This document shows, one piece after another, positions 22,611-47,509 of a DNA stretch of 61,982 bases. The notes under the pieces were generated by a model. The model was not told the origin of the DNA. It worked only from the letters and a program-made list of their open reading frames with translations, and did no database searches. How positions within the stretch are numbered: the first letter of the stretch is position 1; each line of letters begins with the position of its first letter. The stretch is taken from assembly GCA_016193585.1 (NCBI GenBank), contig JACPRW010000002.1:1-61982 (forward strand), given 5' to 3'. Both the position numbers and the translations under genes were made by a program. Origin of the DNA: Candidatus Aenigmatarchaeota archaeon (GTDB lineage: Archaea; Aenigmatarchaeota; Aenigmatarchaeia; GW2011-AR5).

Positions 22611-22853
22611 TATAGTGGACCAACAAAAGAATACCGACATAGTACTTTTGTTGTCCGCTACACGCGGAAAACAAGGTTTTCCGGTGCACCAAAAAGCTTT
22701 GCTTTTTGCGTGTAAGTGAACCAAGATATAGATAATTGCGCAGCTTATGTCGTATTAACGCGCAATTTTCTATAGGTGAATTGCAAATAATATCAGGACA
22801 TAACCAGTGCAATTCACCATATAATACCTGATTATTTACTTGGTTCACTATAA
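22611..22853. repeat. Composite hairpin-module repeat (about 240 bp), rearranged relative to 29045-29288
   Basis: Shares the aattgcgc, gtgaattgca and gtgaaccaag modules and a ggaaaacaaggttttcc hairpin. Track ORF 22555-22848 falls inside it and was rejected. Confidence 0.85.
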
Positions 22854-24098
22854 CTAGATATTGTACCGCAGTATCGCTCCCAGCCCGCCGAGGTGCTCGA
22901 ACTGCACACCCTCGCGCGTGTCTGACGTCACGACGACAACTGACGTGCCGTAGTCTGCCGCGCGCTCTTCGAGGTATTCGACGAGGTCCTTTTCTCCGAT
23001 GAGCATGCCTTCGACCTTCTCCGGCTTCCGCGGGTCCCAGAACACCTCTTTTTTCTCGTCGTTGACGAGGTATTCCCGCACCTTGAGCGGATTGTTCTCG
23101 TTCACGATGATTTGCTCGACCGCGCCCATCTCCAGCGCCTTCAGCACGTCGTCGAGCTTGTACAACGCCAGCCCGTGCGGCTTCTGCATCTCGGTGAGCA
23201 CACGCTGGATGACCTTCTTCTCCTTGAAGACGCTCGCTTCCTTTATAAGATTCTCGCCGCGCTGTATCGTTTCCTCAAGCCCCTGGTCGCCGGTGTAGCT
23301 CGTGTCGACGGTGCCGAGAATCTTTTTCTTCACGTCAGCGTGCAGGAAGTCCTCCTTGTACAGCATGTCCTTCACCGGGCCGGAGCCGGAAAGGAAGATG
23401 CCGATGACGTTCTTGTGCTCTTCAAAGAATTTGTTCGATGCTTCGGCGACATGCTTGAGCCAGTCGTTGAGCAGGCCCTCGCGGACGCGGCTGAAACGGG
23501 CGGAACTCTGCCCGCCCGCGCGCGTCTTTCCCGGCACGATGGATTCGAAATGCTGGAACGGTTCTATCTTCTTGCCGACCAGCAGCGCGATGTCCGCCTC
23601 GCTCCGGTCGAGACAGATAATTCCGTACACCTCCTTTTCCTCGACCATCTCCATGAGCGGCTCAAGGACGAATTTCTGGTCACACCAGTACATCTTGACC
23701 TTGACCGGTTCCGGCGGCTCGATTGCAATCAACCGGATGTCCGCCTCGCCTTCGCGCTGCGACACGTTGCCGCAGAACACCGCGAGCCCGTTGTCGGGCG
23801 TCTTCCTGTAGAGCTGCAGGTGGCGCATAATCTTCTCGAGCGCGCCGACGACGTTCTTCTTCACCTGCTTCGACTTGATGTTCTCTGCGGTGCTCTGTTC
23901 CGACCGCAGCTGGTTCATCATCTCGGCAAGGGGATAACTGACCGGCACGTACACGGTCACGAGCTCGGTGTGCCGTCCCTTGACCGCCCCAAGTTCCTTC
24001 GCGAGCTTCTTGAGGCGGAACTTTGATTTCAGCACTTCGGCGTGCTCTTCTTCAGGCATTTTCATCACGACCTTTTCCAAAGCACACGGGCGCAGCAA
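22854..24098 (-). CDS. prf1: Peptide chain release factor aRF1
   Basis: GGQ motif (TRAGGQSSARFSR) and NIKS-like region (ENIKSKQ). Alternative start at MKMPEEE (24065). Confidence 0.9.
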   Translation of the reverse strand: MLRPCALEKVVMKMPEEEHAEVLKSKFRLKKLAKELGAVKGRHTELVTVYVPVSYPLAEMMNQLRSEQSTAENIKSKQVKKNVVGALEKIMRHLQLYRKTPDNGLAVFCGNVSQREGEADIRLIAIEPPEPVKVKMYWCDQKFVLEPLMEMVEEKEVYGIICLDRSEADIALLVGKKIEPFQHFESIVPGKTRAGGQSSARFSRVREGLLNDWLKHVAEASNKFFEEHKNVIGIFLSGSGPVKDMLYKEDFLHADVKKKILGTVDTSYTGDQGLEETIQRGENLIKEASVFKEKKVIQRVLTEMQKPHGLALYKLDDVLKALEMGAVEQIIVNENNPLKVREYLVNDEKKEVFWDPRKPEKVEGMLIGEKDLVEYLEERAADYGTSVVVVTSDTREGVQFEHLGGLGAILRYNI

Positions 24099-25287: not shown

Positions 25288-25478
25288 TCATAGTAAAGAA
25301 CATTGATTTTGGAACATTTTACAATGTTCTTTCCCTATAGCAGATTGTGGTTATAGTGAAGCAAATAAATAATACCGATATTATACATTTGCTTCACATA
25401 TAGCAAACAAGGAAGTAATATCGTGTTTATTTCCTTGTATTGCTATAAAAGTTCCATTATTATTACAATCTGCTATCA
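25288..25478. repeat. Nested hairpin repeat. The family A unit (modules 1 plus 2) is inserted into the loop of the gcagattg hairpin.
   Basis: Compare with the uninterrupted copies at 463-560 and 13878-13973. The insert equals 8209-8304. The last module overlaps the valS stop codon. Confidence 0.85.
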
Positions 25479-29044: not shown

Positions 29045-29288
29045 TATAGATAATTGCGCAGCTTATGTCGTATTAACGCGCAATTTTCTATAGGTGAATT
29101 GCAAATAATATCAGGACATATAGTGAACCAAGTAAATAATCAGGTATTATATCTTGGTTCACTTACACGCAAAAAGCAAAGCTTTTTGGTGCACCGGAAA
29201 ACTTTGTTTTCCGCGTGTAGCGGACAACAAAAGTATTATGTCGGTATTCTTTTGTTGGTCCACTATAACCAGTGCAATTCACCATATA
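29045..29288. repeat. Composite hairpin-module repeat (about 240 bp), partner of 22611-22853
   Basis: Track ORF 29054-29329 lies inside it and shares its peptide with ORF 22555-22848, so it is a repeat artefact. Confidence 0.85.
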
Positions 29289-29368
29289 TGAACGCGAAAT
29301 GGGTCGAAGGGTTGTGGACAGTCCTGTAGTTTACTAGATTTATAAACCTTGATGGCGGTAATAATTAC

Positions 29369-30508: not shown

Positions 30509-30527
30509 CGCGTTCACGAATGCTTTT

Positions 30528-30706
30528 TATAGTGAAGCAAATAAATAATACCGATATTATACATTTGCTTCACATATAGCAAACAAGGAAGTAATACAAG
30601 GTGGATTCCATGAATCCACCTGTACAGGAGAATCTTCGATTCTCCTCGTATCATGTTTATTTCCTTGTATTGCTATAATACGACATAAGCTGCGCAATTA
30701 TCTATA
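30528..30706. repeat. Family A repeat with inner insert, plus aattgcgc module
   Basis: Near-identical to 46-225. Confidence 0.85.
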
Positions 30707-31893: not shown

Positions 31894-32856
31894 ATGGGAA
31901 GGCTACAGGAAATAATCACCCGTGAGTTTGGCGAGCGAATAATCCGAATGCCTGATCCATTGGGAGAGCTAACGCCTCCTGATGATGCACTCTATGACGC
32001 GTTAGGTTGCCATGTCGCTGACCCCTCCGTGCACGAGGCATTTGACGGGATTTTCGATGCAGTGCGGGCGATGGAAGCTGCTGCGCGCGCTGATTCGCCT
32101 GATGAGTACGACCGGCTGGCAGTGGGATTGCACGGTCATGACCTGAGGAATATGCATGCAGTTCTGGCATCAAGTTTCCGCCTGAGCAGATCACGGCCCG
32201 GCCTGCTGCGTGACAGAGAGTTTCTCGATACATTTTCAGCATATGAGCAGCTTTTCCGCCTCTTCGGTGCCACGATGGCGTATCTTTCATCAGCGGGTGA
32301 TGCACGCTATACGTTACCTGTCCCTTTTTCACGCGTGGGGTGGCTGCTGCAGGTACCGGCACGAGGCATAAAACTGACAGCGCTTGAGCATCCTCCTGTG
32401 GGGCATCTACAAAGTCCTGAGTATGTGGTGCTGCACCAGTTCGCTTCTAATGCCCCTGTTGGTTTTGGTGCTGTCATCGATGATGGCGGCGCGTACACAA
32501 CGCTCTCTGTCAGCGATAGAGGACCAGGTATTCGTGATGCCTGCGGGAGCCCGCTCCCGCCAGAACGATTCAGCGAGCTGTTTGGCGGTTTCACGACAAA
32601 GGAAAGAGGAAGAGGCCATGGCGGAGGATTGCAGATAGCCGACGGGTTGAGCCGCTTGCGAGGAGGCTATATCGATGTCAGGACAGGAACAGAGGCGCAT
32701 GAAATTCAGTATACGACGCGTGATGGCCGTTATTCCGTATCTCCTCCTAACGGTTTCCATGGGACCCGCTTCACGCTCCATGTCCCCCACTCCAACAGTT
32801 TCCATGGAAGAGGCGGTGACGCTATGGCCGGTTTCGGTGCAGCGCATTATGCGTGA
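31894..32856 (+). CDS. Histidine-kinase-like ATPase domain protein (soluble, no receiver or TM domain)
   Basis: H-box-like GLHGHDLRNMHAV. HATPase_c blocks VSDRGPGI and GRGHGGGLQIA. Codon usage less GC3-biased than neighbours. Confidence 0.55.
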   Translation: MGRLQEIITREFGERIIRMPDPLGELTPPDDALYDALGCHVADPSVHEAFDGIFDAVRAMEAAARADSPDEYDRLAVGLHGHDLRNMHAVLASSFRLSRSRPGLLRDREFLDTFSAYEQLFRLFGATMAYLSSAGDARYTLPVPFSRVGWLLQVPARGIKLTALEHPPVGHLQSPEYVVLHQFASNAPVGFGAVIDDGGAYTTLSVSDRGPGIRDACGSPLPPERFSELFGGFTTKERGRGHGGGLQIADGLSRLRGGYIDVRTGTEAHEIQYTTRDGRYSVSPPNGFHGTRFTLHVPHSNSFHGRGGDAMAGFGAAHYA

Positions 32857-32909
32857 ATGCCTCCGCTTTTGATAAAAGGTTTTAATAGACTGCTATCATT
32901 ATAGATAGT

Positions 32910-33443
32910 ATGATGCTTTTCCATCGGCTTTTCAGCGTCATGGACATGCTGCATCCAGCACGGGTTGCCTACGCCCACTGCGACATCCCGTGCGGCATCT
33001 ACGACCCTCACCTTGCCCAGCAGGCCGCGCATACGGTCATTCGCATGGTTATGCTTATCGAAGAAGCAACGGCAAAATTCAAGGCACTAGCAAACCCGAT
33101 AGCAGAGGACAGGCGCGAGTTTGTCACCAAGCTTGCCCGCTACACTGCAACGAAAGAGCAGCACGCCGAGCTGTGTAAACACGAAGTCCGCATCCTGTGG
33201 GGCGACTACTTCAAGCCTGAGCACATCCAGAAATACCCTGAACTGCACGAGCTGGTGTGGAAGGTTATGAAGCTGGGGTCCATCGCGCGGCAGTCGGTCG
33301 ATATGCAAACCGCTGAGGAGCTGCTCGAGGCCGCGAACCGCGTTGCCGAGATATTCTGGGAAACCAAGGGCATGGGCCACGCGCGCTACCCGGCGCCGAA
33401 CCCTACCGGCCGGCAAACCGTCTATCCGACGGGGAAGAAGTAA
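32910..33443 (+). CDS. sodN: Nickel-containing superoxide dismutase precursor
   Basis: Ni-hook HCDIPCGIYDP after a 22-aa propeptide. LWGDYFKPEH, YPELHELV and IFWETK blocks as in Streptomyces SodN. Confidence 0.85.
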   Translation: MMLFHRLFSVMDMLHPARVAYAHCDIPCGIYDPHLAQQAAHTVIRMVMLIEEATAKFKALANPIAEDRREFVTKLARYTATKEQHAELCKHEVRILWGDYFKPEHIQKYPELHELVWKVMKLGSIARQSVDMQTAEELLEAANRVAEIFWETKGMGHARYPAPNPTGRQTVYPTGKK

Positions 33444-33525
33444 TGCTCTGTTCTTAAAAGTTGTCGTCCAATAGACCTTTCATGGGGGATTCTGAAAACA
33501 AACAGATTTTGGGTGACTTTGCCAT

Positions 33526-33816
33526 TATATGGTGAATTGCACTGGTTATGTCCTGATATTATTTGCAATTCACCTATAGAAAATTGCGCGTTATAGTGAA
33601 GCAAATAAATAATACCGATATTATACATTTGCTTCACATATAGCAAACAAGGAAGTAATACAAGGTGATCGTGTTTATTTCCTTGTATTGCTATAATACG
33701 ACATAAGCTGCGCAATTATAGCTGACCAACTTAATATTCAGGTATTACACAAGTTGGTCACATATAGTGAACCAAGTTATAATATCCGGATTCTTTACTT
33801 GGTTAACTATATCTAT
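33526..33816. repeat. Composite hairpin-module repeat (gtgaattgca, aattgcgcg, family A with 8-nt footprint caaggtga, tgaccaactt and gtgaaccaag modules)
   Basis: Module 2 here carries only caaggtga where 97-213 carries the 56-nt insert. Confidence 0.85.
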
Positions 33817-33994
33817 AACAGTTGTCGCCATTATCATTTTCTTGCTCCCCTTCGTGCTGTACGAAGAAGGAAGCTTTTGGCGGGAGCGGAATATACAGAG
33901 GGGTACGATACTCGCTGCAATTACTTTCTTTCTCGGTGGTATATACGTGGCAGTTTACGCAAACCGGCACGAAAAAAAGAAACAGCCGCATTAG
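33767..33994 (+). CDS. Possible small 2-TM membrane protein. The start lies inside the repeat.
   Basis: Hydrophobic 75-aa ORF, but its first codons are repeat-derived. Confidence 0.2.
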   Translation: MNQVIISGFFTWLTISITVVAIIIFLLPFVLYEEGSFWRERNIQRGTILAAITFFLGGIYVAVYANRHEKKKQPH

Positions 33995-34362
33995 GAAAGC
34001 GTGTGGGATCTGTTCTTGAATCCCCGTTGAAATCTACATGAACACCGGGTTGTCCTGATACGTTTGACCGGCGGGCACCGTGGATTACGAAGGATTATAG
34101 AAGGGCTGCCGGCAGAAGCCCTTGTGGACAAAGAATGGGGCATCAGAAAAGCCTAATACCCAGGCGGCTTCTTGTGGACATAGCCGGGAGCGTCCTTGTT
34201 CGCGTACACCGGCGGGGCTGACGGCTGGCAGGTGAATCCTGCAGCTTCCTTGTGCCATCGCTCCCTGAGAAAATCAGGAATATAGTCAACGCCAGCCATG
34301 CAATTCATTTCTTTACCGCCTTTAAATGCCCACCTAAAGTTGTAGTTTTACAAGTGATTCGC

Positions 34363-35028
34363 ATGTCCCAAAGACCGAGTAGCGTTGTGACAGTTTCCGG
34401 AAATGAAATCAAAGGGCATCTAAGGCAACTGGAGAAACGTACCCACGACGGCCGTCATCATCTTCACACGGTAACATCACGATTGGAACAAGGCAGCCTC
34501 GTCAGCTTGTACGAAATAGACAACCCAGAAATATGTAGTAGATTAGGCTATTTTGCAGATGACGATTTTCCATACTGGAAGATCCATGGAGCCTTTAAAG
34601 GTCCTTGTATCACAGCTCTGTTACTAATGGAGTCTGGTGGGCATACAACAGGGGATGGAAGGAAATGTTTACCATTTTCTAAGGCATTTGATTACGATTT
34701 TGGAGAATGTTTAGAACGTGCTATTCTTACCCAGTTAATCGCCCAGCAAGCACCATATGCAACGGATAGTTTCTTGGTTTGTGGCTACGAACGAGGGCAG
34801 CATGCGTTTAACGTTGTCTACATGCCTGAACACCCGTATCTAGTTGATACCATGAATCCTTTGCGTGAGGAGGGAAAGGCACGTGAACCGTACATTGCAC
34901 CCCTTACTGGAATTGAAGTCGTGGTAACTTCGCTCTACAGTAACTATCCTCCGCTGGAATCAGATAGGTTTTTGGTCCCTCCCCAATGGGAACGGGGAAG
35001 GTCATACAAGCTTGATTGGTCTCTTTAA
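34363..35028 (+). CDS. Hypothetical protein
   Basis: 221-aa ORF. Moderately AT-rich. No motif recognised. Confidence 0.45.
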   Translation: MSQRPSSVVTVSGNEIKGHLRQLEKRTHDGRHHLHTVTSRLEQGSLVSLYEIDNPEICSRLGYFADDDFPYWKIHGAFKGPCITALLLMESGGHTTGDGRKCLPFSKAFDYDFGECLERAILTQLIAQQAPYATDSFLVCGYERGQHAFNVVYMPEHPYLVDTMNPLREEGKAREPYIAPLTGIEVVVTSLYSNYPPLESDRFLVPPQWERGRSYKLDWSL

Positions 35029-35185
35029 ATCAGTTCTGCCTGCGTGCTGTTCCTGGGGAGATTGTGTATTTGAAGAGCTTAAAAAATACACAGGAGTTTG
35101 CATAAGAAACTAGGGTAAATCCTGTGGATGCTTAATTTTTATCCCGAATTATCTTTCTATGGGGCTTGTAAAGATTAAATAATGC

Positions 35186-35560
35186 ATGAAATCTATATAT
35201 GTCTATTTAAATCTTGTCATCAATAGAATACAAGATTTTATGCAGAAAATAAAGGAAAGCGAGCTTGTTTCAGCGCGACTTAGCCCAAAAGAAATGGAAG
35301 CTATAGAGACCTTGGTAGAAGAAGGCTTCTATATGAACACGGCGGATTTCGTGAGAATGGCTGTACGGGAAAAGCTGGAGTCTATTAAAATAATAGACGT
35401 ACGCGACTTAAGCAAGGACAAGGCCAGGAAGGAAGTTATAGAATACATCAAGGATAACAAGCAAGCATATCCGAGCGATATATCTGATGCATTGAAAATT
35501 GATTTTGATATGGTTCTAGAAATAGTAAAAGAACTGGCGAAAGAGGGCAGAGTTAAATGA
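35186..35560 (+). CDS. Ribbon-helix-helix plus winged-helix transcriptional regulator
   Basis: RLSPKEMEAIETLVEEGFYMNTADFVRMAVREKL is a CopG/RHH motif. C-terminal wHTH. AT-rich. Start possibly at MQKIKES (35243). Confidence 0.55.
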   Translation: MKSIYVYLNLVINRIQDFMQKIKESELVSARLSPKEMEAIETLVEEGFYMNTADFVRMAVREKLESIKIIDVRDLSKDKARKEVIEYIKDNKQAYPSDISDALKIDFDMVLEIVKELAKEGRVK

Positions 35561-36018
35561 TACTTCGGGATTTGGGCGATGAAGTTCAGGGAGAGCAAAT
35601 TGTCTGCTTTTACAGGAAAAGAGACAGAGAAATATTGTTCCCCATGACGTCAGGTCACCGAGGCCTGAGAGTTAAGATAAAAGGCTTACCTGCACGTGCT
35701 GTCGTAGAAAAGCAAATTGAGTTTTTGAGATGAAATGCCCCTTGTTACTACCGGCTGATTCACGGAGAGCGGAGCTCTCCTGAATTCCTTGCAGAACCAA
35801 GTTCTGCGAGGTTTCAGAGAACTTTGTTCCCTGCAAATCTCAAGGGGCTTACAGAGGCCCTTTGCAGAAAAGTCCGTGGTTTCTTTGTGCAGAAAACTCT
35901 GAAAGAGTTTTCTGAAAACGTCAGAAAGCTTTTCTTTCTGCACGTTGTGCATTTCTTTCGAATTCATCCCCTCATCCGCTGACTGAAGCCAGCGGTTTTC
36001 GGGAGGATTCAAAATAAA

Positions 36019-36729
36019 TCAGAATTCGATTTTCTTGCTTTCTTTCGTCACCACAAACGTTTGTGTTTCTGCGCCGCAGTGCTTTCCGACAAGTGCCGCC
36101 AGCCCGTTCAGCGCCGCCTTCATGTCCTGTTCCGTCAGCGGCGGCAGCATCTCGATGACGAGCACTGCGCTCCTCGTTGCTTCGGTCAGCTTCGTGCGGT
36201 CGGACTCGCGCCAGTTCCATTTCCTGCAGAGCACTTCCCTGTTGTCTGTGTACACAACTTCTCCCTGAGCCGGATGCGTTACCTCTGAAGAGCCAAGAGC
36301 GACAAACGGCTCAGTCCCTTCAGCGAATTTCAGGCGTATGTCACCTGTAATTTTTTCCATGTCCTCGCCGCCAACCGGCGTTCTGTATTTGAGCGAGATG
36401 CAATTGTAGCAGTCGACCAGCGTGTTGATATGGCGGAGCGAACCGCCCTTCAGGACGCGCCGCATGAGCGCTTCATGTGACGCACGGTCATCCTTCTCGC
36501 CGAACTGCCTGTACGCCTGCCGCCAGTTCTGGATGAGCGGCGACTGCGCAAGCGTTTCGAGCTGCAGCTCATGCCGCACCTGCGCTTCCTGCTGCCGCAG
36601 CATCTGCATAACTTCCGCATTTTCCCCCTGGTTATTGATATCCCGTGCGACGGCAATGCCTATCACTGCGTCAGGGTACTTCCCGAAGATTGCATCGTCT
36701 ATGGCAAAACGCATCAAAAAATTTGTCAC
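36019..36729 (-). CDS. B3/4-domain protein (stand-alone homolog of the PheT B3/B4 tRNA-binding domain)
   Basis: LMRRVLKGGSLRHINTLVDCYNCISLKYRTPVGGED block. Confidence 0.65.
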   Translation of the reverse strand: MTNFLMRFAIDDAIFGKYPDAVIGIAVARDINNQGENAEVMQMLRQQEAQVRHELQLETLAQSPLIQNWRQAYRQFGEKDDRASHEALMRRVLKGGSLRHINTLVDCYNCISLKYRTPVGGEDMEKITGDIRLKFAEGTEPFVALGSSEVTHPAQGEVVYTDNREVLCRKWNWRESDRTKLTEATRSAVLVIEMLPPLTEQDMKAALNGLAALVGKHCGAETQTFVVTKESKKIEF

Positions 36730-36764
36730 CGTATCTTTAAAAATAGTGCCACCAAGTACTGTCT

Positions 36765-36941
36765 ATGCCGGCTGATTTGGAAAAAATACAAAAGGATCTC
36801 GCGGGGCTCAAAAGAGACATTGCGTTCATCAAGCATGTTCTTGTAGAGGAATACGAAATGAGCGGCTACGCAAAGAAAGCCCTGAAAAAGGCGAGGGAAA
36901 CGCCCAAATCAAAATACGTCAGCTTAGAAGAGCTTGGTTGA
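36765..36941 (+). CDS. Putative antitoxin (58 aa), partner of the disrupted relE-like gene. Not in the ORF track.
   Basis: MPADLEKIQKDLAGLKRDIAFIKHVLVEEYEMSGYAKKALKKARETPKSKYVSLEELG. Its stop overlaps the toxin ATG (TGAATG). Confidence 0.45.
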   Translation: MPADLEKIQKDLAGLKRDIAFIKHVLVEEYEMSGYAKKALKKARETPKSKYVSLEELG

Positions 36942-37503
36942 ATGGCATACGATGTCAGGCTACATCCTGCCGCAGATGATTTTTTAAAATGCTCCCGAAA
37001 CATGTTTCTGCGAGAATCAAGGAAAAATTAATAGTATGTTCTGTTGATTAGTGAACATTTCATCTTGAATGCCTTGAAAACTGCTACCTTCAGGCAGCAA
37101 ATGCAACAAGGCATTCGGGATCTTCAAAGAGCAGAGCTCTTTGAGATCTCAACTGCGGAAAGCTTCCACTTTCCGCAGTTGCAGATGCCATGCTCCACGG
37201 AAACCACCGACTGCAGTCGGTGGTATAGAGGAGCATATCATGCAGAACATACCCTATAGCAGGTTCAGGTGAAAAGTTTGGTTATTACGTGAACCTACTA
37301 TAATAAGAGCCATAAAGGAAAATCCATTCCATTATCTTGAGCTTTTGAAAGGAGAAAACGTTTACAAGCTGCGCATCGGCGGCTACAGGGAACTGATAGA
37401 CATCGATTTCAGGGAAAAAGTTCTTTACGTCCGTGTTCTCGGCCACAGAAAAAGAATTTGCAATGGTAGTTGGATATGCCCCTCCTCATGCGCTTCAAGG
37501 TAA
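36942..37503 (+). pseudogene. relE: RelE/ParE-family toxin gene split by a 260-bp MITE insertion. N-fragment 36942-37031, C-fragment 37303-37503.
   Basis: N-part MAYDVRLHPAADDFLK... C-part IKENPFHYLELLKGENVYKLRIGGYRELIDIDFREKVLYVRVLGHRK. The C-part is in a different frame. Confidence 0.6.
37040..37302. mobile_element. Composite MITE (family B) inserted in relE. Core atgccatgctccacggaaaccaccgactgcagtcggtggtatagaggagcatatcatgc...ctatagcaggttc-hairpin-tactata, plus three extra hairpins.
   Basis: Second copy of the about 115-bp core at 54161-54277. Non-coding and all-hairpin. Confidence 0.75.
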
Positions 37504-37757
37504 GAGACCGTAGCATGGAGCCAGCGCTCCGTGAGGGCGACTACGTGCTCGTGAGCAGCGTGCCGTTCATGGTCAGACGGCCTGCTGCAGGCGACATTGT
37601 TGTCGCACGGCACAAGGGAATGTTCGTCATCAAGCGGATACGGGAGACAGAAGGAGACGTGTACACGCTTCTCGGAGACAACCCGCATGGCAGCGGCTTC
37701 CGCGTGCCGAAAAAAGCCATTGTCGGCAAGGTTGTCCTGCACGTACGGAAAAAATAA
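37470..37757 (+). CDS. sodX: S26-family signal-peptidase-like protease, candidate NiSOD maturation peptidase SodX
   Basis: Catalytic Ser in RDRSMEPALREGDYVLV and Lys in FVIKRIRE. 95 aa. About 4 kb from sodN. Confidence 0.6.
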   Translation: MDMPLLMRFKVRDRSMEPALREGDYVLVSSVPFMVRRPAAGDIVVARHKGMFVIKRIRETEGDVYTLLGDNPHGSGFRVPKKAIVGKVVLHVRKK

Positions 37758-37944
37758 AAAGGGCGGCGCACAGATAGCTTTGGTGATTTGATGGGCGACG
37801 ACGACCGTCAGGAGTTCTTCGAGGGCAAGAAGCGGAAGAAGTACCGACGCATCTACAAGAAGGGTCACCAGCGCGTGTACAAATGACGCTCTGAGCACTT
37901 CCAGCATTCGGTGCACAGATTGCTTAAATACTTAGCGTCATGGT

Positions 37945-38038
37945 TATAGTGAACCCAGAAAAGAATCTGGATATGATTTCTGGTTCACATATAGCTCACA
38001 AGGAAGTAATATCCTGTTTATTTCCTTGTAGAGCTATA
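37945..38038. repeat. Hairpin-module repeat (gtgaacccag plus acaaggaag modules)
   Basis: Modules shared with 1838-1935. Confidence 0.8.
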
Positions 38039-38059
38039 ATGCTCAGAGGGACCACCTGC

Positions 38060-38668
38060 ATGACTAAAAAGATGAAAATACTCGCCGCGAGCGATTTCCA
38101 CCAGGACATCGAGGCGGTGAAGAAGCTTGCGAAGCAAGCGGACAAAGCGAAGGTTGATGTCGTTGTCATAGCCGGCGATCTGACGTACTTTGACGATGAC
38201 GTGTCCGGCATGGTAGGGCCATTCAGGCAGCGGCAGAGAGAGGTGCTTTTTGTTCCCGGCAACCACGACAGCCCTGCGACTGCGGATTTTGTCGTTGAGA
38301 AGTACAAGGCGCGAAACCTTCAATACTATGCCGTAGTCATCAGCGATGTCGGCTTCTTCGGCTGCGGCGGCGCCAACGTCGGCCCGCATTTCATCACCGA
38401 GAAGGAAATTGCCGACACGCTCAAGCGCGGCTTCACGTACGTGAAAGACGCTCCGAAAAAGGTCATGGTGACGCACATGCATCCTGCGAGCACGCTAGTT
38501 GAGAAATTCTCATTCAGGGGAAGCAAGGCAGTGCGCAAGGCCATCGAGGAGTTCAAGCCGGACGTGCACATCTCCGGCCACATCCATGAGACCGAAGGAC
38601 TCGTCGAAACAATCGGCAAAACCAAGACATACAGCATCGGCAAGAGCGGCCGGTTCATCAGCGTGTAG
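38060..38668 (+). CDS. Calcineurin-like metallophosphoesterase (MJ0936/YfcE type)
   Basis: ILAASDFHQD, VVIAGDLT, PGNHD and GHIHE motifs. Confidence 0.75.
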   Translation: MTKKMKILAASDFHQDIEAVKKLAKQADKAKVDVVVIAGDLTYFDDDVSGMVGPFRQRQREVLFVPGNHDSPATADFVVEKYKARNLQYYAVVISDVGFFGCGGANVGPHFITEKEIADTLKRGFTYVKDAPKKVMVTHMHPASTLVEKFSFRGSKAVRKAIEEFKPDVHISGHIHETEGLVETIGKTKTYSIGKSGRFISV

Positions 38669-38956
38669 CTGATTGTGCCGCTTCTCCAAGTGCCTGTCCG
38701 AAGGGGCGCTCGGAGCGCCGTATATGATGAAGCCTTTCTGATTCCCCCTCGTGATAGCAAGGTGGTTCCGCTGCTACCAATGGTCTGCCACCGCTCTATC
38801 CGTACCGGCACGTCCCGGCTGGTAACCTGCCGGTCACTCCGGCATGGCGTCATGTTATAGTTACTTTTCCGGTCAGGTCAGCATGAAAGTCCCGGTGGAG
38901 GCAATCCCCGTGGCAAAACTCCCCCATCCTGCCGGGGCGTGAAATACTCATGAAAT

Positions 38957-39043
38957 TATAGTTCTACAAGGAAAGATTTTGGATATTATTTCCTTGTGAA
39001 CTATAGGTGAACCCAGTCATAACATATCCTGATTATTTACTGG
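38957..39043. repeat. Hairpin-module repeat truncated by a poly-G tract
   Basis: Copy of 1838-1935 ends at gattatttactgg, then gatgggggaggggggggg. Confidence 0.8.
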
Positions 39044-39169: not shown

Positions 39170-42100
39170 ATGCTTCAATCTTCTCTGCAACCATCAGCAA
39201 GTGCCAAGCGCGTTCGCCGTACATGGTGCACCCTCTTCATACCCATTGCTGTCCTGCTTCTTGTAGCGAGTTTAAAGGCTACGCCTGCAGAAGCTGGATG
39301 CGTAACAGACGGTGGCTGGTCAGCAACGTGTAATTCTGGTAACATATACGGTGGAGGGGCCCCAAATACTAACCCATGCGTCAGAAGCGCAGGTGGATGC
39401 GGTATCGCATCAGTTGAATGCGAAAATGTTTGCTTGTTTTATAATAACAACTGCGGATTAGCTTCTGGTTGCTATTGCTCTGGGGGGAGTGTTTTGCAAC
39501 CATTCTGCGGGGGGCCGAACAAATGCTATAACCCAAAAGAACGCTATGGTAAAAGTGTTTGGTGCGGCAATGGAAAATATTGCGATCAGCAATGTGAGTG
39601 CGACAATTTATGCGGCGGCGCGCCGCCGCCGGGTAGCACGTGTTCAGCCGGCTGGAAATGCAAAAGCCCGACAACGAAAGGCTATCAGAGCAGCAACTGC
39701 GCATGGTCGCAGGAACAATACTGCAACTATGGCTGCTCCAATGGAAACTGCAATTCGGCTCCAGTGACGGCAAGCAATGACGCCGCTTTCGTAGAGCAAA
39801 CCGTGCCGTCAACGATGTGCGTCGGGCAGGTAGCGGCAGTAACCGTGAAAATGAGGAACACGGGAGGGTCGATATGGAATGCAGCTGACAATTACCGGCT
39901 TGGTGCGCAGAAGCCATCCCAAGACAGCGATCGGTGGGGCAATACAAGAGCTTATCTTGTGCCGTACATCAACTACTGGAACGGCGGTGTGGACACTGCG
40001 ACGTTCAACTCGCCGGGGTCAACGTGGAACGTGGTGCCCAATGCCGCGGGCACCTATGAGTTCCAGTGGCAGATGGTCAGGGATGGCGTTGGGTGGTTTG
40101 GCCAGAAGACGAATTCGGTGTCGGTGACCGTCCTTGCTGTGCCATCGTCGGCGCCGTCGCTGACGCAGCCTGCCTATAATCAAAAATTTCCCCCTGGCAC
40201 GTCGTCGGTGACGCTGAAGTGGAGCAGCGTCGACGGCGCGACCAGCTATGACGTGCGGGTCACCGATGATAACGATGCGGCGGATACGAGCAACATCGTC
40301 GGCGCAAATAGTAACTGTGCGCCAAGCTTAGACGTATGTTACGATGGCTGGACAAACAGAGAAATGACGATTACGGTGCAATCAGGCAAGCGGTACAAAT
40401 GGTGGGTGCACGCCAAAAACCAGTGCGGTTCTGGCGGCGGGTCGGCAAACTACGAATTTCTTGTCGATACCAACAGCCCGCCGGCGGCATCCATTGCTTC
40501 AGGCGCATCAGCCGGCTGCAGCGGCACTGCTTACACGTACGCCGCATCGGGCTCTGATGTGAACAGCAACCTCTACGATATAGCGCTCTATGTGTCTCCG
40601 ACATCCAGCAGGAGCGCGACATTGATGGGCGAATGCTCATTTGCGGACACGTCATCGTACAATTGCCAGAAGTCCTGGACACCGTCAGGAGCCGGCGCCT
40701 ATTACGTGTTCGTGAACGCGTGGGACCGGGCAGGCGGCCAGTGCTCTGGTAATCCATGGTGCGATTTCGATGGCGGCTCGCTCAGCTGCGACGCAGGCAG
40801 CAACTGCGTCTATTGTACGGGCTGGTCGCGCTGCGGGTCAAGCGACCGCACGACGGTCACCATTTCCAGCAATGAGTGCTCGGCAGCAGGCGTCATCGAA
40901 TGTTCCAGCAACCAGGCGCGCACCTGCGGCAGCAATTACGACGGCGATCCGTGCCTCGAATGGAGCTCGTACACGAGCTGCGGCAGCACGCAGTCGTGTG
41001 CATCAGGTTACAGCGGCTCCTGCGCCAATTCATGCAGCACAGCATCAGGTTGCGTCAGCTGTACGCTCACCTACACGGGAAGCTCGCCGACCTGCTGCGG
41101 CAATGACGGCACGAGCGTCGGCAGTAGCGGAACATGCTGTTCAAATCTTGTCAAGTGCGACGGCGTCTGCCGCAGCCGCAGTTCGTGCAGCTGCGACGAC
41201 GGCAATGCGTGCACCACCGGCGATACCATTCAGGCTGATGGCGTGTGCCGGGGGACAGCCTACGCGGCATCAGGAACGCCGTGCGGCACCACTGCATGCG
41301 GCTGGAACCAGGTCGGCAGCGGATGCACGCGGTACTGCAACGGCGCAGGAACCTGCAACAGCTGCCCGCCATCGTGCACGGCATCGTTTGGAACGTCCAT
41401 CGAATCGGTCTGCGTCAATAACGTGTGCAGCGGCGACGTGAGCGTGCCGACAACCGGCACCATTACGGCAGAGATTACCGTCAAAAACACTGGTGCCTTT
41501 TCCCAGGCGTGGTGGTTTGTCGGCGCCGAAGCCATGAGGGTCGGCAATTATAATGACCCCTATAACTCACGGTATGGCACGTCGCTCATCACGAAGTACT
41601 ACAACGGCAAAGACGATTACGGTGACTGCACGGTGAGCGACGCATCCGACATACCGTCAGGCGGAACACGGAAAATAACCTGCACCTTCCCTGCGGCGTC
41701 ATTTGGCGCAACGAGCGGCATCGAGCGCGTCATGTTCTGGGTGCATGAGCGGGACCTTGGCCAGGACAGGAACGGCGGCTGCGCGGTATGGGACGGGAGC
41801 AGTGATACGTACTACAAAACGTGCGGGAATGCAGTCAATTGTTACAGTGCCACTCCTGTCAGTTTATCGTGCGACCAACGCTATTATAGTCTCAGGAACG
41901 AGTTGCTGTCGCAGTACGGCCAGTGCTGGCAGTATGGTCAGAATGTGTGCAATGAACTCCAGGAATGGATAGAGTCTCTTGACAAATGCTATAGTCAGGC
42001 TGACTGCGATTTATTCAGAAATCATGCCCGGTATTCGTGCGACCCCAACCGCATCCCGATACCGAGTTACGTATGCGACAAGATGCAGCTGTACGACCAG

Positions 42101-44131
42101 AGATGTTACCGGAGCCGGTCGAATGGGTGCTGGGGCGGCTCGTGGTGGGACGACGCGCTCGCAACTGCAGCGCCTGCGGCGGTCAGGGTTTCGCTGATCG
42201 ACTGCACCGGTTCAGGCGGAGCGACTGGCCCCGGCGGTTACTGCTGCAGCGGCCTGACGAAATGCAGCGGCGACGTCTGCAGAAGCATCTGTACCGGCGA
42301 TTCCTGCAATGACGGCAGTCTGTGCACGTTCAATGACCGCATACAGGCTGACGGCTCGTGCAGGGGAACCATACACTCCTGCCCGGACGTGAAATGCGGG
42401 AGATTCGTGTGCGACGGCAACGGCGGGTGCACCGGCTCATACGTGAGCGTATGGTGCACCGACGACAATGCGTGCACCGCCGGCGATTTCTGCAGTGAAG
42501 GCTCCTGCCGGGCGACGGCCTACACCTGCCCTCCGCAGTCGTGCCCTGCTGATTCCTGCGCAAGCTCGACGTGGTACTCGACGTGGTACGATTACCCTGC
42601 GTCGTGCACGCGAAGCTGCCTCGGCAACGGCGCGTGCAGCGTCTGCGATTGCACGGCACAAACAACCGCGTGCACTGCCGGCAGCGGGTGCTGCGTTGCG
42701 CGGTGCTCAGCGGGCAGCGGGTGCTCGACAGCAGCAGGCTCGTGCGCTGATCTGTGCAGCGCGAATACGCTCACCATCGGACAAAGCTGCAGCGGGTGCG
42801 GGGCGAATGGCGCTGCAGGGAATTGTGGCGGCGGGACAAGTTATACGTGCGACGCGACATCGCATACGCTCTGTCAGCAATACTCATGCGGCGGCAGCAC
42901 GTACTCCTGCACGAATGCCGGCGGAAGCTGGTCGTGGAGAACAGCAACAGGCTGCAATGACAACAATGCATGCACGTACAACGACGCATGTGCAAGCGGC
43001 TCGTGCCGGGGAACGTCCTATGCGTGCAGCGACGTCTGCACCATGAACACGCTCACCATCGGCAGGGGATGCAACGGCGACGGCACGTGCGGCAGCGGCA
43101 CGTCCTATGCATGCGATGCCACAACGTACACGAGCGGCCAGCAGCTGACGTGTGGCGGTCTGCAGAAGTGCTGCACCTATGCCTCCGGCAGCTGGCAGTG
43201 GTCGTCATCGTGCGACAGCAATGCGCCATCCAGTGGCTGGACAGGCAGCAGCTTCGGGGCATATGATAATGACGGTACAGCATCAGCAACCGTATCATGC
43301 GCCGACAGCGGCAGCGGGCCGAAGGACGCGTGGGTCGCCAAAAAAGTCAATAATGCATGGCAGTACTACTGCGCTGACGGAACATGGCAGACGGACTCCG
43401 ACTGTAATAGCCACAATGGCATCGGCTTTTTATCATCCACGTATGCGTGCACCTCAACCGGCGCTGACGGACACCGTCTTCAATGTGCTGTCCGGTGCAG
43501 GGACAATGCGCTTAACGTTGATGCAAGCTGGGATTACACGACAGACTCATTAGTGGATACGTCTGCGCCAACATCTGGCTGGACAAGCAGCACCTTTGGG
43601 ACGTATGACACAGATGGCAGCGCTTCAGCTGTCACGTCGTGCAGTGATTCAGGAAGCGGAATCAGGGACGTATACGTAGCTTGGAGAGTCAATGGACTCT
43701 TTGCCAATTATGGTTATCAGGCATATCCCTATACCTGCACCTCAACCGGTTCTAATGGCCAGTATATTCAATGCGCTGTCCGGTGCAGGGACAATGCCGG
43801 CAATTTAGATGATAGCTGGGATTACACGGCTGGGACAATAGTGGACACTGCTCCTCCGTCCACCAGTTCTTCATCTTCCGTCACCGCCAACCAGTACAAC
43901 TGGTACACCTCGAACGTCGCGGTCACGCTGGCGTGCAGCGACACCGGCGGCAGCGGCTGCGGGGCGACGAAGTACTGCACCGATACGGCGGGCACGTGCA
44001 CGCCGACGACGACGTACAGCGCCGCGGTCACCATCAGCAGTCGAGAACCCTGCTCATCGACAAGACCGCGCCATCCGGCGTTTCGGTATCGAATACCAAC
44101 GGCTATTGGTCAGCAACAACCATACCCGTAA
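39170..44131 (+). CDS. Giant secreted Cys-rich adhesin-like protein, N-terminal 1,653 codons. Signal peptide, Cys-rich modules, CARDB/DUF11-like and FN3-like domains, four CxDxNxCT..D..C..G.CRG repeats, Ig-like repeats.
   Basis: Signal peptide MLQSSLQPSASAKRVRRTWCTLFIPIAVLLLVASLKATPAEA. About 150 Cys. The track frame ends in junk after AVTISS because of a frameshift at about 44040. Confidence 0.8.
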   Translation: MLQSSLQPSASAKRVRRTWCTLFIPIAVLLLVASLKATPAEAGCVTDGGWSATCNSGNIYGGGAPNTNPCVRSAGGCGIASVECENVCLFYNNNCGLASGCYCSGGSVLQPFCGGPNKCYNPKERYGKSVWCGNGKYCDQQCECDNLCGGAPPPGSTCSAGWKCKSPTTKGYQSSNCAWSQEQYCNYGCSNGNCNSAPVTASNDAAFVEQTVPSTMCVGQVAAVTVKMRNTGGSIWNAADNYRLGAQKPSQDSDRWGNTRAYLVPYINYWNGGVDTATFNSPGSTWNVVPNAAGTYEFQWQMVRDGVGWFGQKTNSVSVTVLAVPSSAPSLTQPAYNQKFPPGTSSVTLKWSSVDGATSYDVRVTDDNDAADTSNIVGANSNCAPSLDVCYDGWTNREMTITVQSGKRYKWWVHAKNQCGSGGGSANYEFLVDTNSPPAASIASGASAGCSGTAYTYAASGSDVNSNLYDIALYVSPTSSRSATLMGECSFADTSSYNCQKSWTPSGAGAYYVFVNAWDRAGGQCSGNPWCDFDGGSLSCDAGSNCVYCTGWSRCGSSDRTTVTISSNECSAAGVIECSSNQARTCGSNYDGDPCLEWSSYTSCGSTQSCASGYSGSCANSCSTASGCVSCTLTYTGSSPTCCGNDGTSVGSSGTCCSNLVKCDGVCRSRSSCSCDDGNACTTGDTIQADGVCRGTAYAASGTPCGTTACGWNQVGSGCTRYCNGAGTCNSCPPSCTASFGTSIESVCVNNVCSGDVSVPTTGTITAEITVKNTGAFSQAWWFVGAEAMRVGNYNDPYNSRYGTSLITKYYNGKDDYGDCTVSDASDIPSGGTRKITCTFPAASFGATSGIERVMFWVHERDLGQDRNGGCAVWDGSSDTYYKTCGNAVNCYSATPVSLSCDQRYYSLRNELLSQYGQCWQYGQNVCNELQEWIESLDKCYSQADCDLFRNHARYSCDPNRIPIPSYVCDKMQLYDQRCYRSRSNGCWGGSWWDDALATAAPAAVRVSLIDCTGSGGATGPGGYCCSGLTKCSGDVCRSICTGDSCNDGSLCTFNDRIQADGSCRGTIHSCPDVKCGRFVCDGNGGCTGSYVSVWCTDDNACTAGDFCSEGSCRATAYTCPPQSCPADSCASSTWYSTWYDYPASCTRSCLGNGACSVCDCTAQTTACTAGSGCCVARCSAGSGCSTAAGSCADLCSANTLTIGQSCSGCGANGAAGNCGGGTSYTCDATSHTLCQQYSCGGSTYSCTNAGGSWSWRTATGCNDNNACTYNDACASGSCRGTSYACSDVCTMNTLTIGRGCNGDGTCGSGTSYACDATTYTSGQQLTCGGLQKCCTYASGSWQWSSSCDSNAPSSGWTGSSFGAYDNDGTASATVSCADSGSGPKDAWVAKKVNNAWQYYCADGTWQTDSDCNSHNGIGFLSSTYACTSTGADGHRLQCAVRCRDNALNVDASWDYTTDSLVDTSAPTSGWTSSTFGTYDTDGSASAVTSCSDSGSGIRDVYVAWRVNGLFANYGYQAYPYTCTSTGSNGQYIQCAVRCRDNAGNLDDSWDYTAGTIVDTAPPSTSSSSSVTANQYNWYTSNVAVTLACSDTGGSGCGATKYCTDTAGTCTPTTTYSAAVTISSREPCSSTRPRHPAFRYRIPTAIGQQQPYP

Positions 44132-47187: not shown

Positions 47188-47235
47188 GATGAGCACCTTC
47201 CGCTGTTACCGTACCGTAACCATCATTACAATCAT

Positions 47236-47439: not shown

Positions 47440-47509
47440 ACATCAATATCAGCATCAGTATCAATAGCAGTGATTAATAGTATTTAAATCTTTACATTCA
47501 TGTAAAGAT

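What the first reader, a model, noticed from the sequence alone, without database searches (positions are those of the whole stretch)
32910..33443. Nickel superoxide dismutase (SodN) with a distal SodX-like peptidase in an archaeal genome
sodN here has the full Ni-hook HCDIPCGIYDP behind a 22-aa propeptide and all conserved downstream blocks. A minimal S26-type peptidase with a Ser/Lys dyad (37470-37757) lies 4 kb away. In streptomycetes and cyanobacteria the two are adjacent. NiSOD is mainly known from actinobacteria, cyanobacteria and marine bacteria. In an archaeon otherwise full of archaeal housekeeping genes it implies lateral acquisition and a nickel supply route. The sodX gene also directly abuts the MITE-disrupted relE locus, so the separation of sodN and sodX may reflect rearrangement by mobile DNA.
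Basis: partly seen in the sequence, partly recalled or inferred. Interest (0 to 1): 0.55.

Follow-up and report, generated by a model that had tools for sequence, protein, structure and literature searches.

The report
Archaeal nickel SOD with unlinked protease
This DPANN archaeon carries an ordinary nickel superoxide dismutase gene and, 4 kb away, a divergent copy of its maturation protease; the pair is common and already annotated in archaea, so only the split arrangement is unusual.

Summary
ORF 32910-33443 is a nickel superoxide dismutase precursor (TIGR02753 161 bits against a cutoff of 90). It has a 22-residue leader, an A-Y-A|H cleavage site and the Ni-hook HCDIPCGIYDP. ORF 37476-37757 is a 93-residue, anchor-less Ser/Lys peptidase.

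I conclude that the peptidase is the cognate SodX:
- Its homologs lie within 300 bp of sodN in 70 of 80 genomes scanned, and within about 1 kb in 7 more.
- A profile built only from sodN-adjacent peptidases scores it 87 bits. The only other S26-like ORF in the loci scores 22.
- Its nearest relatives, L001 then L005, are the same as SodN's.

It is divergent, scoring 45 bits on TIGR02754 against a cutoff of 63 and lacking the DSRxFG box.

NiSOD with SodX is widespread in Aenigmatarchaeota, other DPANN groups, Thermoplasmatota and Thaumarchaeota. Databases already annotate it and it is published (PMC10783094).

The 4 kb gap is a variable insertion spot holding low-GC genes, a dead relE module and MITE-like repeats. 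The nearest relative has an unrelated 4.9 kb insert at the same place. No nickel transporter lies in the window. Interest is low.

The parts
32910..33443 (+). sodN: nickel superoxide dismutase preprotein, 177 aa (end includes the stop codon)
   Evidence: PF09055 148.9 bits. TIGR02753 161.3 bits against a cutoff of 90. PDB NiSOD E 5.6e-26. AF2 model pLDDT 92.4, matching 1T6U at TMt 0.84. 100% identical to an NCBI protein named 'superoxide dismutase, Ni'.
32910..32975 (+). Propeptide, 22 codons, ending in V-A-Y-A. Predicted cleavage is between Ala22 and His23.
   Evidence: The alignment to mature NiSOD starts at His23. Across 81 related SodN sequences, position -1 is Ala in 80 and position -3 is Ala or Val in 78. 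An LD[RK]..P motif is also conserved.
32976..33008 (+). Ni-hook HCDIPCGIYDP: His1 and Cys2 N-terminal ligands, Cys6, Tyr9
   Evidence: Read directly from the sequence. These columns are invariant in alignment A1.
33372..33440 (+). C-terminal extension (residues 155-177) predicted as a beta-hairpin. It is absent from Streptomyces NiSOD and conserved in this subfamily.
   Evidence: The TIGR02753 and PDB matches end at residues 153-154. AF2 predicts strands 155-161 and 169-176 with pLDDT 90-94. The YPT..ETVYP motif is conserved in A1.
33524..33815 (.). Cluster of palindromic MITE-like repeats directly 3' of sodN
   Evidence: blastn finds copies at 1-219, 5650-5748, 8208-8305, 22732-22856, 25334-25448, 29050-29292, 30527-30701, 37943-38040 and 47235-47440. 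An independent Logan assembly contig ends here.
33444..37475 (.). Variable insert separating sodN from sodX. It holds a small membrane ORF (33767-33994), an unknown 258-aa ORF (34252-35028), an RHH/wHTH regulator (35186-35560), a B3_4-domain gene (36019-36729, minus strand) and a dead antitoxin/relE module.
   Evidence: Pfam results. GC is 0.38-0.45 in 34500-36000 against 0.53-0.56 for sodN, sodX and flanking windows. None of the region is shared with the insert in L001.
36765..37503 (+). Inactivated toxin-antitoxin module. A putative antitoxin (assigned by position only, no family match) lies at 36765-36941. The relE N-terminal piece is at 36942-37026 and is frameshifted. A 296-bp MITE-like insert follows at 37027-37322, then the relE C-terminal half at 37323-37503, which overlaps the sodX start.
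   Evidence: phrog_1213 RelE-like, E 2.5e-5, profile positions 36-86 of 88. Translations. 11-bp flanking direct repeats and internal hairpins. A partial second copy at 54161-54278, 86.6% identical.
37476..37757 (+). sodX-like NiSOD maturation protease, 93 aa (an alternative TTG start lies at 37470). Ser13 is encoded at 37512-37514 and Lys53 at 37632-37634.
   Evidence: Best NCBIfam match is TIGR02754, 45.4 bits, covering positions 2-88 of 90, below the cutoff of 63.25. A profile built from sodN-adjacent peptidases alone scores it 87.0 bits, E 4.6e-25. Homologs are adjacent to sodN. Ser and Lys are invariant. AF2 pLDDT 93.3, with the LexA/UmuD/signal-peptidase fold at TM 0.7-0.8.

Best explanation
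This is a conventional two-gene NiSOD system in an Aenigmarchaeota (DPANN) genome, with its two genes pulled 4 kb apart.

Inferred mechanism, by homology:
1. sodN is translated as a 177-residue cytoplasmic preprotein.
2. The soluble 93-residue SodX peptidase, using its Ser13/Lys53 dyad, cuts after Ala22 in the A-Y-A|H site.
3. This exposes His23 as the new N-terminus.
4. The free amine and imidazole of His1, the Cys2 amide, and the Cys2 and Cys6 thiolates of the hook HCDIPCGIY then bind nickel.
5. Nickel cycles between Ni(II) and Ni(III) to dismutate superoxide on a four-helix-bundle scaffold.

Shown here: the family membership of both proteins, the conserved cleavage site, the conserved catalytic residues, and co-occurrence and co-divergence of the two genes. 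Inferred only: cleavage, nickel loading and enzyme activity.

The gene pair has been resident in DPANN and other archaeal lineages for a long time and is not a recent import. In this sub-lineage the normally tight sodN-sodX junction has become an insertion spot for unrelated cargo, toxin-antitoxin modules and small repeats. sodX therefore now acts in trans, probably from its own promoter or the toxin-antitoxin module's promoter.
For: **SodN identity**
- TIGR02753 161 bits against a cutoff of 90, PF09055 and the PDB match.
- Predicted fold matches 1T6U at TMt 0.83-0.88.

**Cleavage site**
- Position -1 is Ala in 80 of 81 relatives and position -3 is Ala or Val in 78 of 81. The window reads A-Y-A|H.

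**SodX identity**
- TIGR02754 is the best-scoring NCBIfam model and matches over its full length.
- P0123, 44% identical, lies 5 bp downstream of Sod_Ni.
- 77 of the 80 genome loci fetched by SodN carry a homolog in the locus. In 70 of these it lies within 300 bp of sodN, and in the other 7 it is 353-988 bp away.
- A profile built from 71 sodN-adjacent peptidases, leaving out the window, scores it 87.0 bits (E 4.6e-25). That is just below the training range of 88.7-136.6 bits. The only other S26-like ORF in the loci scores 21.6, and no other window ORF hits.
- Ser, Lys and GDN are invariant.
- The model is confident and has the clan SF fold.

**Cognate pairing**
- Pairwise distances for SodN and SodX correlate (Mantel r 0.435; 0 of 2000 permutations reach it).
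- The two nearest relatives are L001 then L005 for both proteins.
- The window+L001 clade has bootstrap 76/100 for SodN and 68/100 for SodX.

**Long residence in archaea**
- Named relatives are archaeal.
- The NJ tree places the window among Aenigmatarchaeota and other DPANN sequences.
- The Aenigmatarchaeota locus L007 shares a neighbouring metallophosphoesterase at 65% identity, similar to its SodN at 62%.

**Variable junction**
- Separated arrangements in L001, L007, L008, L009, L079 and L011 carry unrelated inserts.
- L001 and the window share only sodN and sodX.
Against: - SodX scores below the curated TIGR02754 cutoff (45.4 against 63.25).
- It lacks the DSRxFG part of box E that 90% or more of relatives keep. 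It could be impaired or retargeted.
- Deep nodes of both trees are unresolved. Bootstraps fall to 15 or below beyond window+L001+L005, so vertical inheritance cannot be separated from transfer among archaea.
- Bacterial clades (CPR, Chloroflexota, Gammaproteobacteria) interleave with archaeal ones.
- Multi-copy repeats lie right after sodN, and an independent assembly breaks there. The exact 4 kb spacing therefore rests on a single MAG assembly.
- No biochemical data exist for any archaeal NiSOD that I could find.
Confidence: 0.85

Rival explanations
1. The 93-aa peptidase is not SodN's protease. It would be a generic or decaying S24/S26 peptidase, possibly tied to the neighbouring toxin-antitoxin module, and SodN would be matured by something else or not at all.
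For: - It scores below the TIGR02754 cutoff.
- Box E DSRxFG is lost.
- It is 4 kb from sodN and overlaps the relE remnant.
- Peptidases separated from sodN score lower than adjacent ones: window 45.4, L001 44.3 and L007 39.1, against 78-87 for L005, L006, L010 and L030.
- Some cyanobacteria with sodN lack sodX altogether (PMC8346466).
Against: - The ORF is intact, with invariant Ser, Lys and GDN.
- It scores 87 bits on a profile built from sodN-adjacent peptidases.
- It has the same nearest relatives as SodN, and distances co-vary.
- L016, which also lacks DSRxFG, is still adjacent to sodN.
- There is no second SodX-like sequence or remnant anywhere in the window.
- SodN keeps a consensus leader and A-x-A site, which implies that processing is still required.
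Confidence: 0.08
2. The sodN-sodX spacing is an assembly or binning artefact. The MAG contig would have been joined wrongly across the multi-copy repeat just downstream of sodN.
For: - A repeat family with at least nine copies in the window starts 81 bp after the sodN stop.
- The Logan assembly contig of the same sequence ends about 110 bp after sodN.
- GC drops in the intervening segment.
Against: - An independent metagenome contig from the closest relative (L001) also has sodN and sodX about 4.9 kb apart on one contig.
- Other relatives show gaps of 0.4-1 kb.
- The nearest relative is the same for both proteins, so both genes come from one lineage.
- L007 keeps sodN, sodX and the same metallophosphoesterase within 7 kb.
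Confidence: 0.07
3. sodN and sodX were acquired recently from bacteria by lateral transfer.
For: - NiSOD was first characterised in bacteria.
- Bacterial clades (Chloroflexota, CPR, Gammaproteobacteria) interleave with archaeal ones in the subfamily tree.
- Mobile DNA is nearby.
- A paper infers lateral transfer of other SOD genes (SOD2) in Aenigmarchaeota (PMC8407114).
Against: - All named close relatives are archaeal.
- The window's SodN sits among Aenigmatarchaeota and other DPANN sequences, and its best bacterial relative is at most 56% identical.
- sodN and sodX have the GC content of their native-looking neighbours, 0.53-0.56.
- The neighbourhood is partly conserved with another Aenigmatarchaeota genome.
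Confidence: 0.05

Closest known systems
Streptomyces coelicolor / S. seoulensis NiSOD (SodN; PDB 1T6U, 1Q0D) with SodX (SCO5254/SCO5255)
   Same: - The Ni-hook HCDxPCGxYDP sits at the processed N-terminus, behind an N-terminal leader ending in Ala.
- The scaffold is a four-helix bundle (about 41% identity, TMt 0.84).
- A small Ser/Lys peptidase partner is present (PMC3919588).
   Different: - The leader is 22 residues here. By my recollection it is 14 in Streptomyces.
- There is a roughly 16-residue insertion between helices 1 and 2.
- There is a 23-residue C-terminal beta-hairpin extension.
- The second-sphere residues Glu17 and Arg47 are Ala and His here (alignment).
- sodX is 4 kb away rather than adjacent, and it lacks DSRxFG.
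Archaeal, Chloroflexota and CPR 'long-form' sodN-sodX pairs, e.g. Aenigmatarchaeota L010 and uncultured archaeon L005, annotated by NCBI as 'superoxide dismutase, Ni' plus 'nickel-type superoxide dismutase maturation protease'
   Same: - SodN is 60-67% identical, with the same leader motif, A-Y-A|H site, insertion and C-terminal extension.
- SodX belongs to the same family.
   Different: - In those genomes sodX follows sodN within 0-25 bp and passes the TIGR02754 cutoff at 78-87 bits.
- Here it is unlinked and scores 45 bits.
Type I signal peptidases (S26, LepB/SipW) and LexA/UmuD (S24)
   Same: - They share the clan SF beta-fold and the Ser/Lys dyad motifs SMxP, KR and GDN.
   Different: - This protein has no membrane anchor, no domain II, no DNA-binding domain and no self-cleavage site.
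- It scores lower on those models than on the SodX model.

Membership tests
Nickel superoxide dismutase (SodN; TIGR02753 / PF09055) | Score above the curated equivalog cutoff over the full model length | tested here: met
   TIGR02753 161.3 bits against a cutoff of 90, model positions 3-144 of 145. PF09055 148.9 bits against 25.
Nickel superoxide dismutase (SodN; TIGR02753 / PF09055) | Ni-hook motif H-C-x-x-P-C-G-x-Y immediately after a cleavable leader | tested here: met
   HCDIPCGIY occupies residues 23-31 behind ...VAYA. The motif is invariant among relatives.
Nickel superoxide dismutase (SodN; TIGR02753 / PF09055) | Four-helix-bundle fold of NiSOD | tested here: met
   AF2 pLDDT 92.4 with helices 34-58, 65-100, 112-128 and 132-152. 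The top 16 PDB matches are all NiSOD, TMt 0.83-0.88.
Nickel superoxide dismutase (SodN; TIGR02753 / PF09055) | Nickel binding, N-terminal processing and superoxide dismutase activity | not testable with these tools
   This needs expression, mass spectrometry of the N-terminus, metal analysis and an activity assay.
NiSOD maturation protease (SodX; TIGR02754) | Score above the curated equivalog cutoff | tested here: not met
   45.4 bits against a cutoff of 63.25. It is still the best-scoring model and matches over its full length, positions 2-88 of 90. sodN-adjacent archaeal relatives reach 78-87 bits.
NiSOD maturation protease (SodX; TIGR02754) | Homology to peptidases encoded next to sodN | tested here: met
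   87.0 bits (E 4.6e-25) on a profile built from 71 sodN-adjacent peptidases, with the window excluded. Single-pass phmmer gives E 6e-23 to the L005 SodX. P0123 sits 5 bp after Sod_Ni.
NiSOD maturation protease (SodX; TIGR02754) | Ser/Lys catalytic dyad in a roughly 90-100 residue soluble protein without a membrane anchor | tested here: met
   Ser13 (SMEP) and Lys53 (IKRI) are invariant in A2. The protein is 93 aa with no hydrophobic segment, as read from the sequence. The fold is clan SF.
NiSOD maturation protease (SodX; TIGR02754) | Box E motif GDNxxxSxDSRxFG | tested here: not met
   The window has GDNPHGSGFR. DSR and FG are nearly invariant (90% or more) in 64 relatives but absent here, as in L001, L007 and L016.
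NiSOD maturation protease (SodX; TIGR02754) | Gene adjacent to, or co-transcribed with, sodN | tested here: not met
   The gap is 4,029 bp and holds several intervening ORFs on both strands.
NiSOD maturation protease (SodX; TIGR02754) | Co-inheritance with the SodN of the same genome | tested here: met
   Mantel r 0.435, with 0 of 2000 permutations reaching it. The nearest relatives are the same for both proteins. Bootstrap for window+L001 is 76 (SodN) and 68 (SodX).
NiSOD maturation protease (SodX; TIGR02754) | Cleaves the SodN leader to expose His1 | not testable with these tools
   This needs co-expression or an in vitro cleavage assay.
Ordinary type I signal peptidase (TIGR02227 bacterial / TIGR02228 archaeal) | Score above cutoff, plus a membrane anchor and full catalytic domain | tested here: not met
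   36.3 bits against a cutoff of 47, and 28.5 against 51.85. The bacterial-model match covers only profile positions 21-81 of 162, and the archaeal-model match covers 36-119 of 158. No transmembrane segment is visible in the sequence.

The most novel reading that the evidence does not exclude
In one Aenigmatarchaeota sub-lineage (window, L001, L007, L008, L009), the otherwise near-universal sodN-sodX linkage has been broken repeatedly by independent insertions: toxin-antitoxin modules, oxidative-stress genes such as DJ-1/PfpI and NUDIX, and MITE-like repeats. The unlinked SodX copies have diverged, losing box E and scoring lower on the family profile. This could mean relaxed or altered protease function. 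One possibility is a trans-acting SodX with a changed active-site support network. Another is a NiSOD whose maturation no longer depends strictly on SodX.
Probability: 0.2. Interest if true: 0.3.

Novelty: new member of a known kind. Interest (0 to 1): 0.15.

Why it matters
It matters little beyond annotation.
- The gene at 37476-37757, labelled only 'S24/S26 family peptidase', can be named a probable NiSOD maturation protease.
- The curated SodX model misses a divergent DPANN subgroup.
- NiSOD with SodX is a standard part of oxidative-stress defence in many small-genome archaea. This fits published surveys and hints at oxygen exposure and a nickel requirement in these organisms.
- No archaeal NiSOD appears to have been characterised biochemically. 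The long-form subfamily differs from the Streptomyces enzyme: a longer leader, a C-terminal hairpin, and Ala and His in place of Glu17 and Arg47. It would be a reasonable target for that work.

Tried and rejected
- **Word-index search with the peptidase alone** gave only 3 proteins. A profile search was needed.
- **Exact-sequence look-ups.** The look-up of the window's SodX found nothing on record. The SodN look-up returned only a short Logan contig, not the NCBI contig.
- **Plasmid search.** Megablast of 32000-39000 against plasmids found no match.
- **Conserved accessory gene between sodN and sodX.** I tested whether the genes between sodN and sodX in the separated loci are homologous. They are not, so the idea was rejected.
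- **A second, degraded sodX directly after sodN.** tblastn with the whole SodX family hit only 37.2-37.8 kb.
- **Ni transporters.** I scanned about 65 window ORFs for Ni-transporter families such as NiCoT, CbiM, HupE/UreJ and Nik ABC components. None was found. This covers only 62 kb of the genome.
- **Solved structures.** No SodX structure was found in the PDB copy. Sequence and fold searches found only LexA, UmuD and signal peptidases.
- **Deep phylogeny.** NJ bootstraps beyond the window+L001(+L005) group were too low to decide between vertical inheritance and transfer among archaea. No ML tree program was available.
- **Promoter scan.** The sigma-70 promoter and terminator scan was not used, because the organism is archaeal.
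Full report
**1. The observation**

The ORF at 32910-33443 (+) encodes 177 residues beginning MMLFHRLFSVMDMLHPARVAYA-HCDIPCGIYDP.
- It scores 148.9 bits on Pfam Sod_Ni (E 1.4e-43).
- It scores 161.3 bits on the NCBIfam equivalog TIGR02753, whose cutoff is 90.
- Against solved structures it aligns from His23 to residue 1 of mature Streptomyces NiSOD (E 5.6e-26).
- An AlphaFold model (pLDDT 92.4) has the four-helix bundle. Its 16 best PDB matches are all NiSOD, with TMt 0.83-0.88.

The second ORF (37470-37757; NCBI starts it at ATG 37476, 93 aa) matches Peptidase_S24 and Peptidase_S26. Its Ser (SMEP) and Lys (IKRI) fall in invariant columns of the family alignment. The two genes are 4,029 bp apart.

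**2. The source organism**

The window is the whole of a 61,982-bp contig of an NCBI MAG named 'Candidatus Aenigmarchaeota archaeon'. On that record SodN is already annotated 'superoxide dismutase, Ni', and the peptidase 'S24/S26 family peptidase'. An archaeal origin is supported by:
- aRF1, ribosomal protein S8e and archaeal-type PEP carboxylase;
- two intron-bearing tRNA genes.

**3. Is the distal peptidase SodX?**

Among NCBIfam models the best hit is TIGR02754, the nickel-type SOD maturation protease. The match covers the full model length but scores 45.4 bits, below the 63.25 cutoff. I therefore tested the assignment independently.

- *Homologs next to sodN.* One of its only two close database homologs (P0123, 44% identity) lies 5 bp downstream of a Sod_Ni gene.
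- *Genome scan.* I scanned one genome per prokaryotic species with a SodN alignment and kept the best 80 loci. I then searched their six-frame ORFs with the window's peptidase.
  - 77 of the 80 loci contain a homolog. In 70 of them it lies within 300 bp of sodN.
  - The usual arrangements are same strand directly downstream of sodN, or divergent directly upstream.
- *Leave-out profile.* A profile built only from 71 sodN-adjacent peptidases, with the window and other separated cases left out, scores the window's protein 87.0 bits (E 4.6e-25). This is just below the training range of 88.7-136.6 bits. The only other S26-like ORF in all loci scores 21.6 bits, and nothing else in the window hits.
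- *Names given by sources.* A profile search of the large protein collection returns relatives that NCBI and JGI name 'nickel-type superoxide dismutase maturation protease'. These come from Aenigmarchaeota, Thermoplasmata and Methanobacteriota.
- *Co-divergence with SodN.* SodN and SodX pairwise distances are correlated across 80 genomes (Mantel r 0.435; no permutation of 2000 reaches it). The window's two nearest relatives are the same for both proteins, L001 then L005. The window+L001 pair has NJ bootstrap 76/100 for SodN and 68/100 for SodX.
- *Fold.* The AlphaFold model (pLDDT 93.3) has the LexA/UmuD/signal-peptidase fold, TM 0.7-0.8.

Two family features are not met. The curated cutoff is missed, and the DSRxFG part of box E is absent. 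That motif is kept by 90% or more of relatives, but the window has GDNPHGSGFR. L001, L007 and L016 lack it as well, and L016 is still adjacent to its sodN. I conclude that this is a divergent but probably functional SodX.

**4. The substrate side**

In 81 related SodN sequences the residue before the hook is Ala in 80, and position -3 is Ala or Val in 78. An upstream L-D-[RK]-x-x-P motif is also conserved. The window's leader follows this consensus, which argues that processing is still required.

**5. Is NiSOD in this archaeon surprising?**

It is not.
- The 120 best SodN relatives are 55-72% identical. Those that carry a name are all archaeal.
- The genome scan found at least 597 loci. The best 80 include:
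  - archaeal groups: Aenigmatarchaeota, Nanoarchaeota, Woesearchaeota, Micrarchaeota, Marsarchaeota, Parvarchaeota, Thermoplasmata, Methanomassiliicoccales, Thaumarchaeota, Thermoproteota and Heimdallarchaeota;
  - bacterial groups: Chloroflexota, CPR bacteria and Gammaproteobacteria.
- The literature already reports NiSOD in MGII, Nanoarchaeota, Thermoplasmatota, Thaumarchaeota, Aenigmarchaeota, Heimdallarchaeota and Woesearchaeota (PMC10783094) and in Lutacidiplasmatales (PMC9287336).
- In an NJ tree rooted on Streptomyces NiSOD, the window groups with L001, L005 and the Aenigmatarchaeota L010 and L007.
- L007 also carries a homolog of the window's metallophosphoesterase (65% identity) a few kb past its sodX, while its SodN is 62% identical to the window's. 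This is consistent with the region being inherited together.

Deep nodes are unresolved and bacterial clades interleave. Ancient inter-domain transfer is therefore likely somewhere in the family, but a recent acquisition by this genome is not indicated.

**6. The gap between sodN and sodX**

The sequence from 33444 to 37475 holds, in order:
1. a cluster of palindromic MITE-like repeats at 33524-33815, whose family has at least nine other copies in the window;
2. a small membrane ORF;
3. a 258-aa ORF with no family match;
4. an RHH/wHTH regulator;
5. a B3_4-domain gene on the other strand;
6. a dead toxin-antitoxin module.

The relE gene is split. Its N-terminal piece is frameshifted. A 296-bp hairpin-rich insert follows, flanked by 11-bp direct repeats. 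The C-terminal half matches RelE-like phrog_1213.

GC falls to 0.38-0.45 in 34.5-36 kb, against 0.53-0.56 for sodN, sodX and flanking windows.

The MITE is inside relE, not at the junction. The nearest relative, L001, has sodN and sodX 4.9 kb apart, and its intervening genes share nothing with the window's. Those genes include PIN and DUF2204 nucleotidyltransferase ORFs, typical of toxin-antitoxin modules.

Other relatives have single unrelated genes inserted:

| Locus | Inserted gene(s) |
|---|---|
| L007 | methyltransferase |
| L008 | DJ-1/PfpI and a glyoxalase |
| L009 | RHH protein |
| L079 | NUDIX hydrolase |

The junction is thus a recurrent insertion spot in this DPANN group. It does not look like a single MITE-driven rearrangement.

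One caveat applies. An independent Logan assembly breaks at the repeat just after sodN, so the exact spacing rests on one MAG assembly. The L001 contig makes a split arrangement credible all the same.

**7. Nickel supply**

About 65 ORFs of the window were scanned with Pfam. None matched a nickel transporter family.

**8. Differences from the characterised enzyme**

Compared with Streptomyces NiSOD, this long-form subfamily has:
- a longer leader;
- a roughly 16-residue insertion between helices 1 and 2;
- a conserved 23-residue C-terminal extension, predicted with high confidence as a beta-hairpin;
- Ala and His at the positions of Glu17 and Arg47 (alignment). From my own knowledge, those two residues hydrogen-bond to His1 in the Streptomyces enzyme.

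These traits belong to the whole subfamily, not to this gene alone.

**9. Verdict**

This is a correctly spotted but ordinary NiSOD system. NiSOD in archaea, including Aenigmarchaeota, is already known and annotated. The only modestly new points are:
- the identification of the unlinked, sub-threshold peptidase as the cognate SodX;
- the observation that the sodN-sodX junction is repeatedly invaded in this lineage.

Noticed in passing
window 33524-33815, and copies at 1-219, 5650-5748, 8208-8305, 22732-22856, 25334-25448, 29050-29292, 30527-30701, 37943-38040, 47235-47440: A palindromic MITE-like repeat family of about 50-200 bp has at least ten intergenic copies, 73-100% identical. One copy lies just 3' of sodN and one just 3' of sodX. 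An independent assembly contig ends at the copy after sodN.
   Followed up: partly
window 54532-56008 (and 54161-54278): An intron-bearing tRNA gene (54532-54651, Rfam 58 bits) overlaps the start of a 475-aa tyrosine-integrase ORF (54581-56008, PF00589). A fragment of the relE-disrupting element lies just upstream. This may be an integrated element at a tRNA gene.
   Followed up: no
window 39170-44131 and 44435-46759: A 1653-aa, very Cys-rich ORF has repetitive CxxC-type modules and an N-terminal hydrophobic segment. A 774-aa ORF follows it. Neither has any Pfam match.
   Followed up: no
window 33372-33440 (SodN residues 155-177) and residues 39 and 85: The archaeal, Chloroflexota and CPR SodN subfamily has a conserved C-terminal extension predicted as a beta-hairpin (pLDDT 90 or higher). 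It also replaces Streptomyces Glu17 and Arg47 with Ala and His. Nothing in the papers I searched or read mentions these traits, though I did not search for them specifically.
   Followed up: partly
L008:4255-5180, L079:7026-7451, L007:8593-9453, L009:9306-9500, L001:1292-5250: Where sodN and sodX are separated in related archaea, the inserted genes differ each time. L008 has DJ-1/PfpI plus a glyoxalase, L079 a NUDIX hydrolase, L007 a methyltransferase, L009 an RHH protein, and L001 PIN and DUF2204 nucleotidyltransferase genes. Two of the inserts are themselves linked to oxidative stress.
   Followed up: partly
window 634-1695 (-): The S-adenosylmethionine synthetase ORF matches the bacterial/eukaryotic MAT domains only weakly (32-53 bits), so it is a divergent MAT in an archaeal genome.
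   Followed up: no
window 52724-53531 and 13411-13896: More toxin-antitoxin genes are present: a MazE/AbrB-type antitoxin plus a PIN toxin pair, and a lone PIN-domain ORF. The contig is rich in toxin-antitoxin modules.
   Followed up: no
window 31894-32856 (+), directly upstream of sodN: A 320-aa protein carries only an HATPase_c domain and no recognisable sensor or DHp domain. It is preceded by a 101-aa ORF and a divergent TrmB-family regulator. I did not examine whether it regulates sodN.
   Followed up: no
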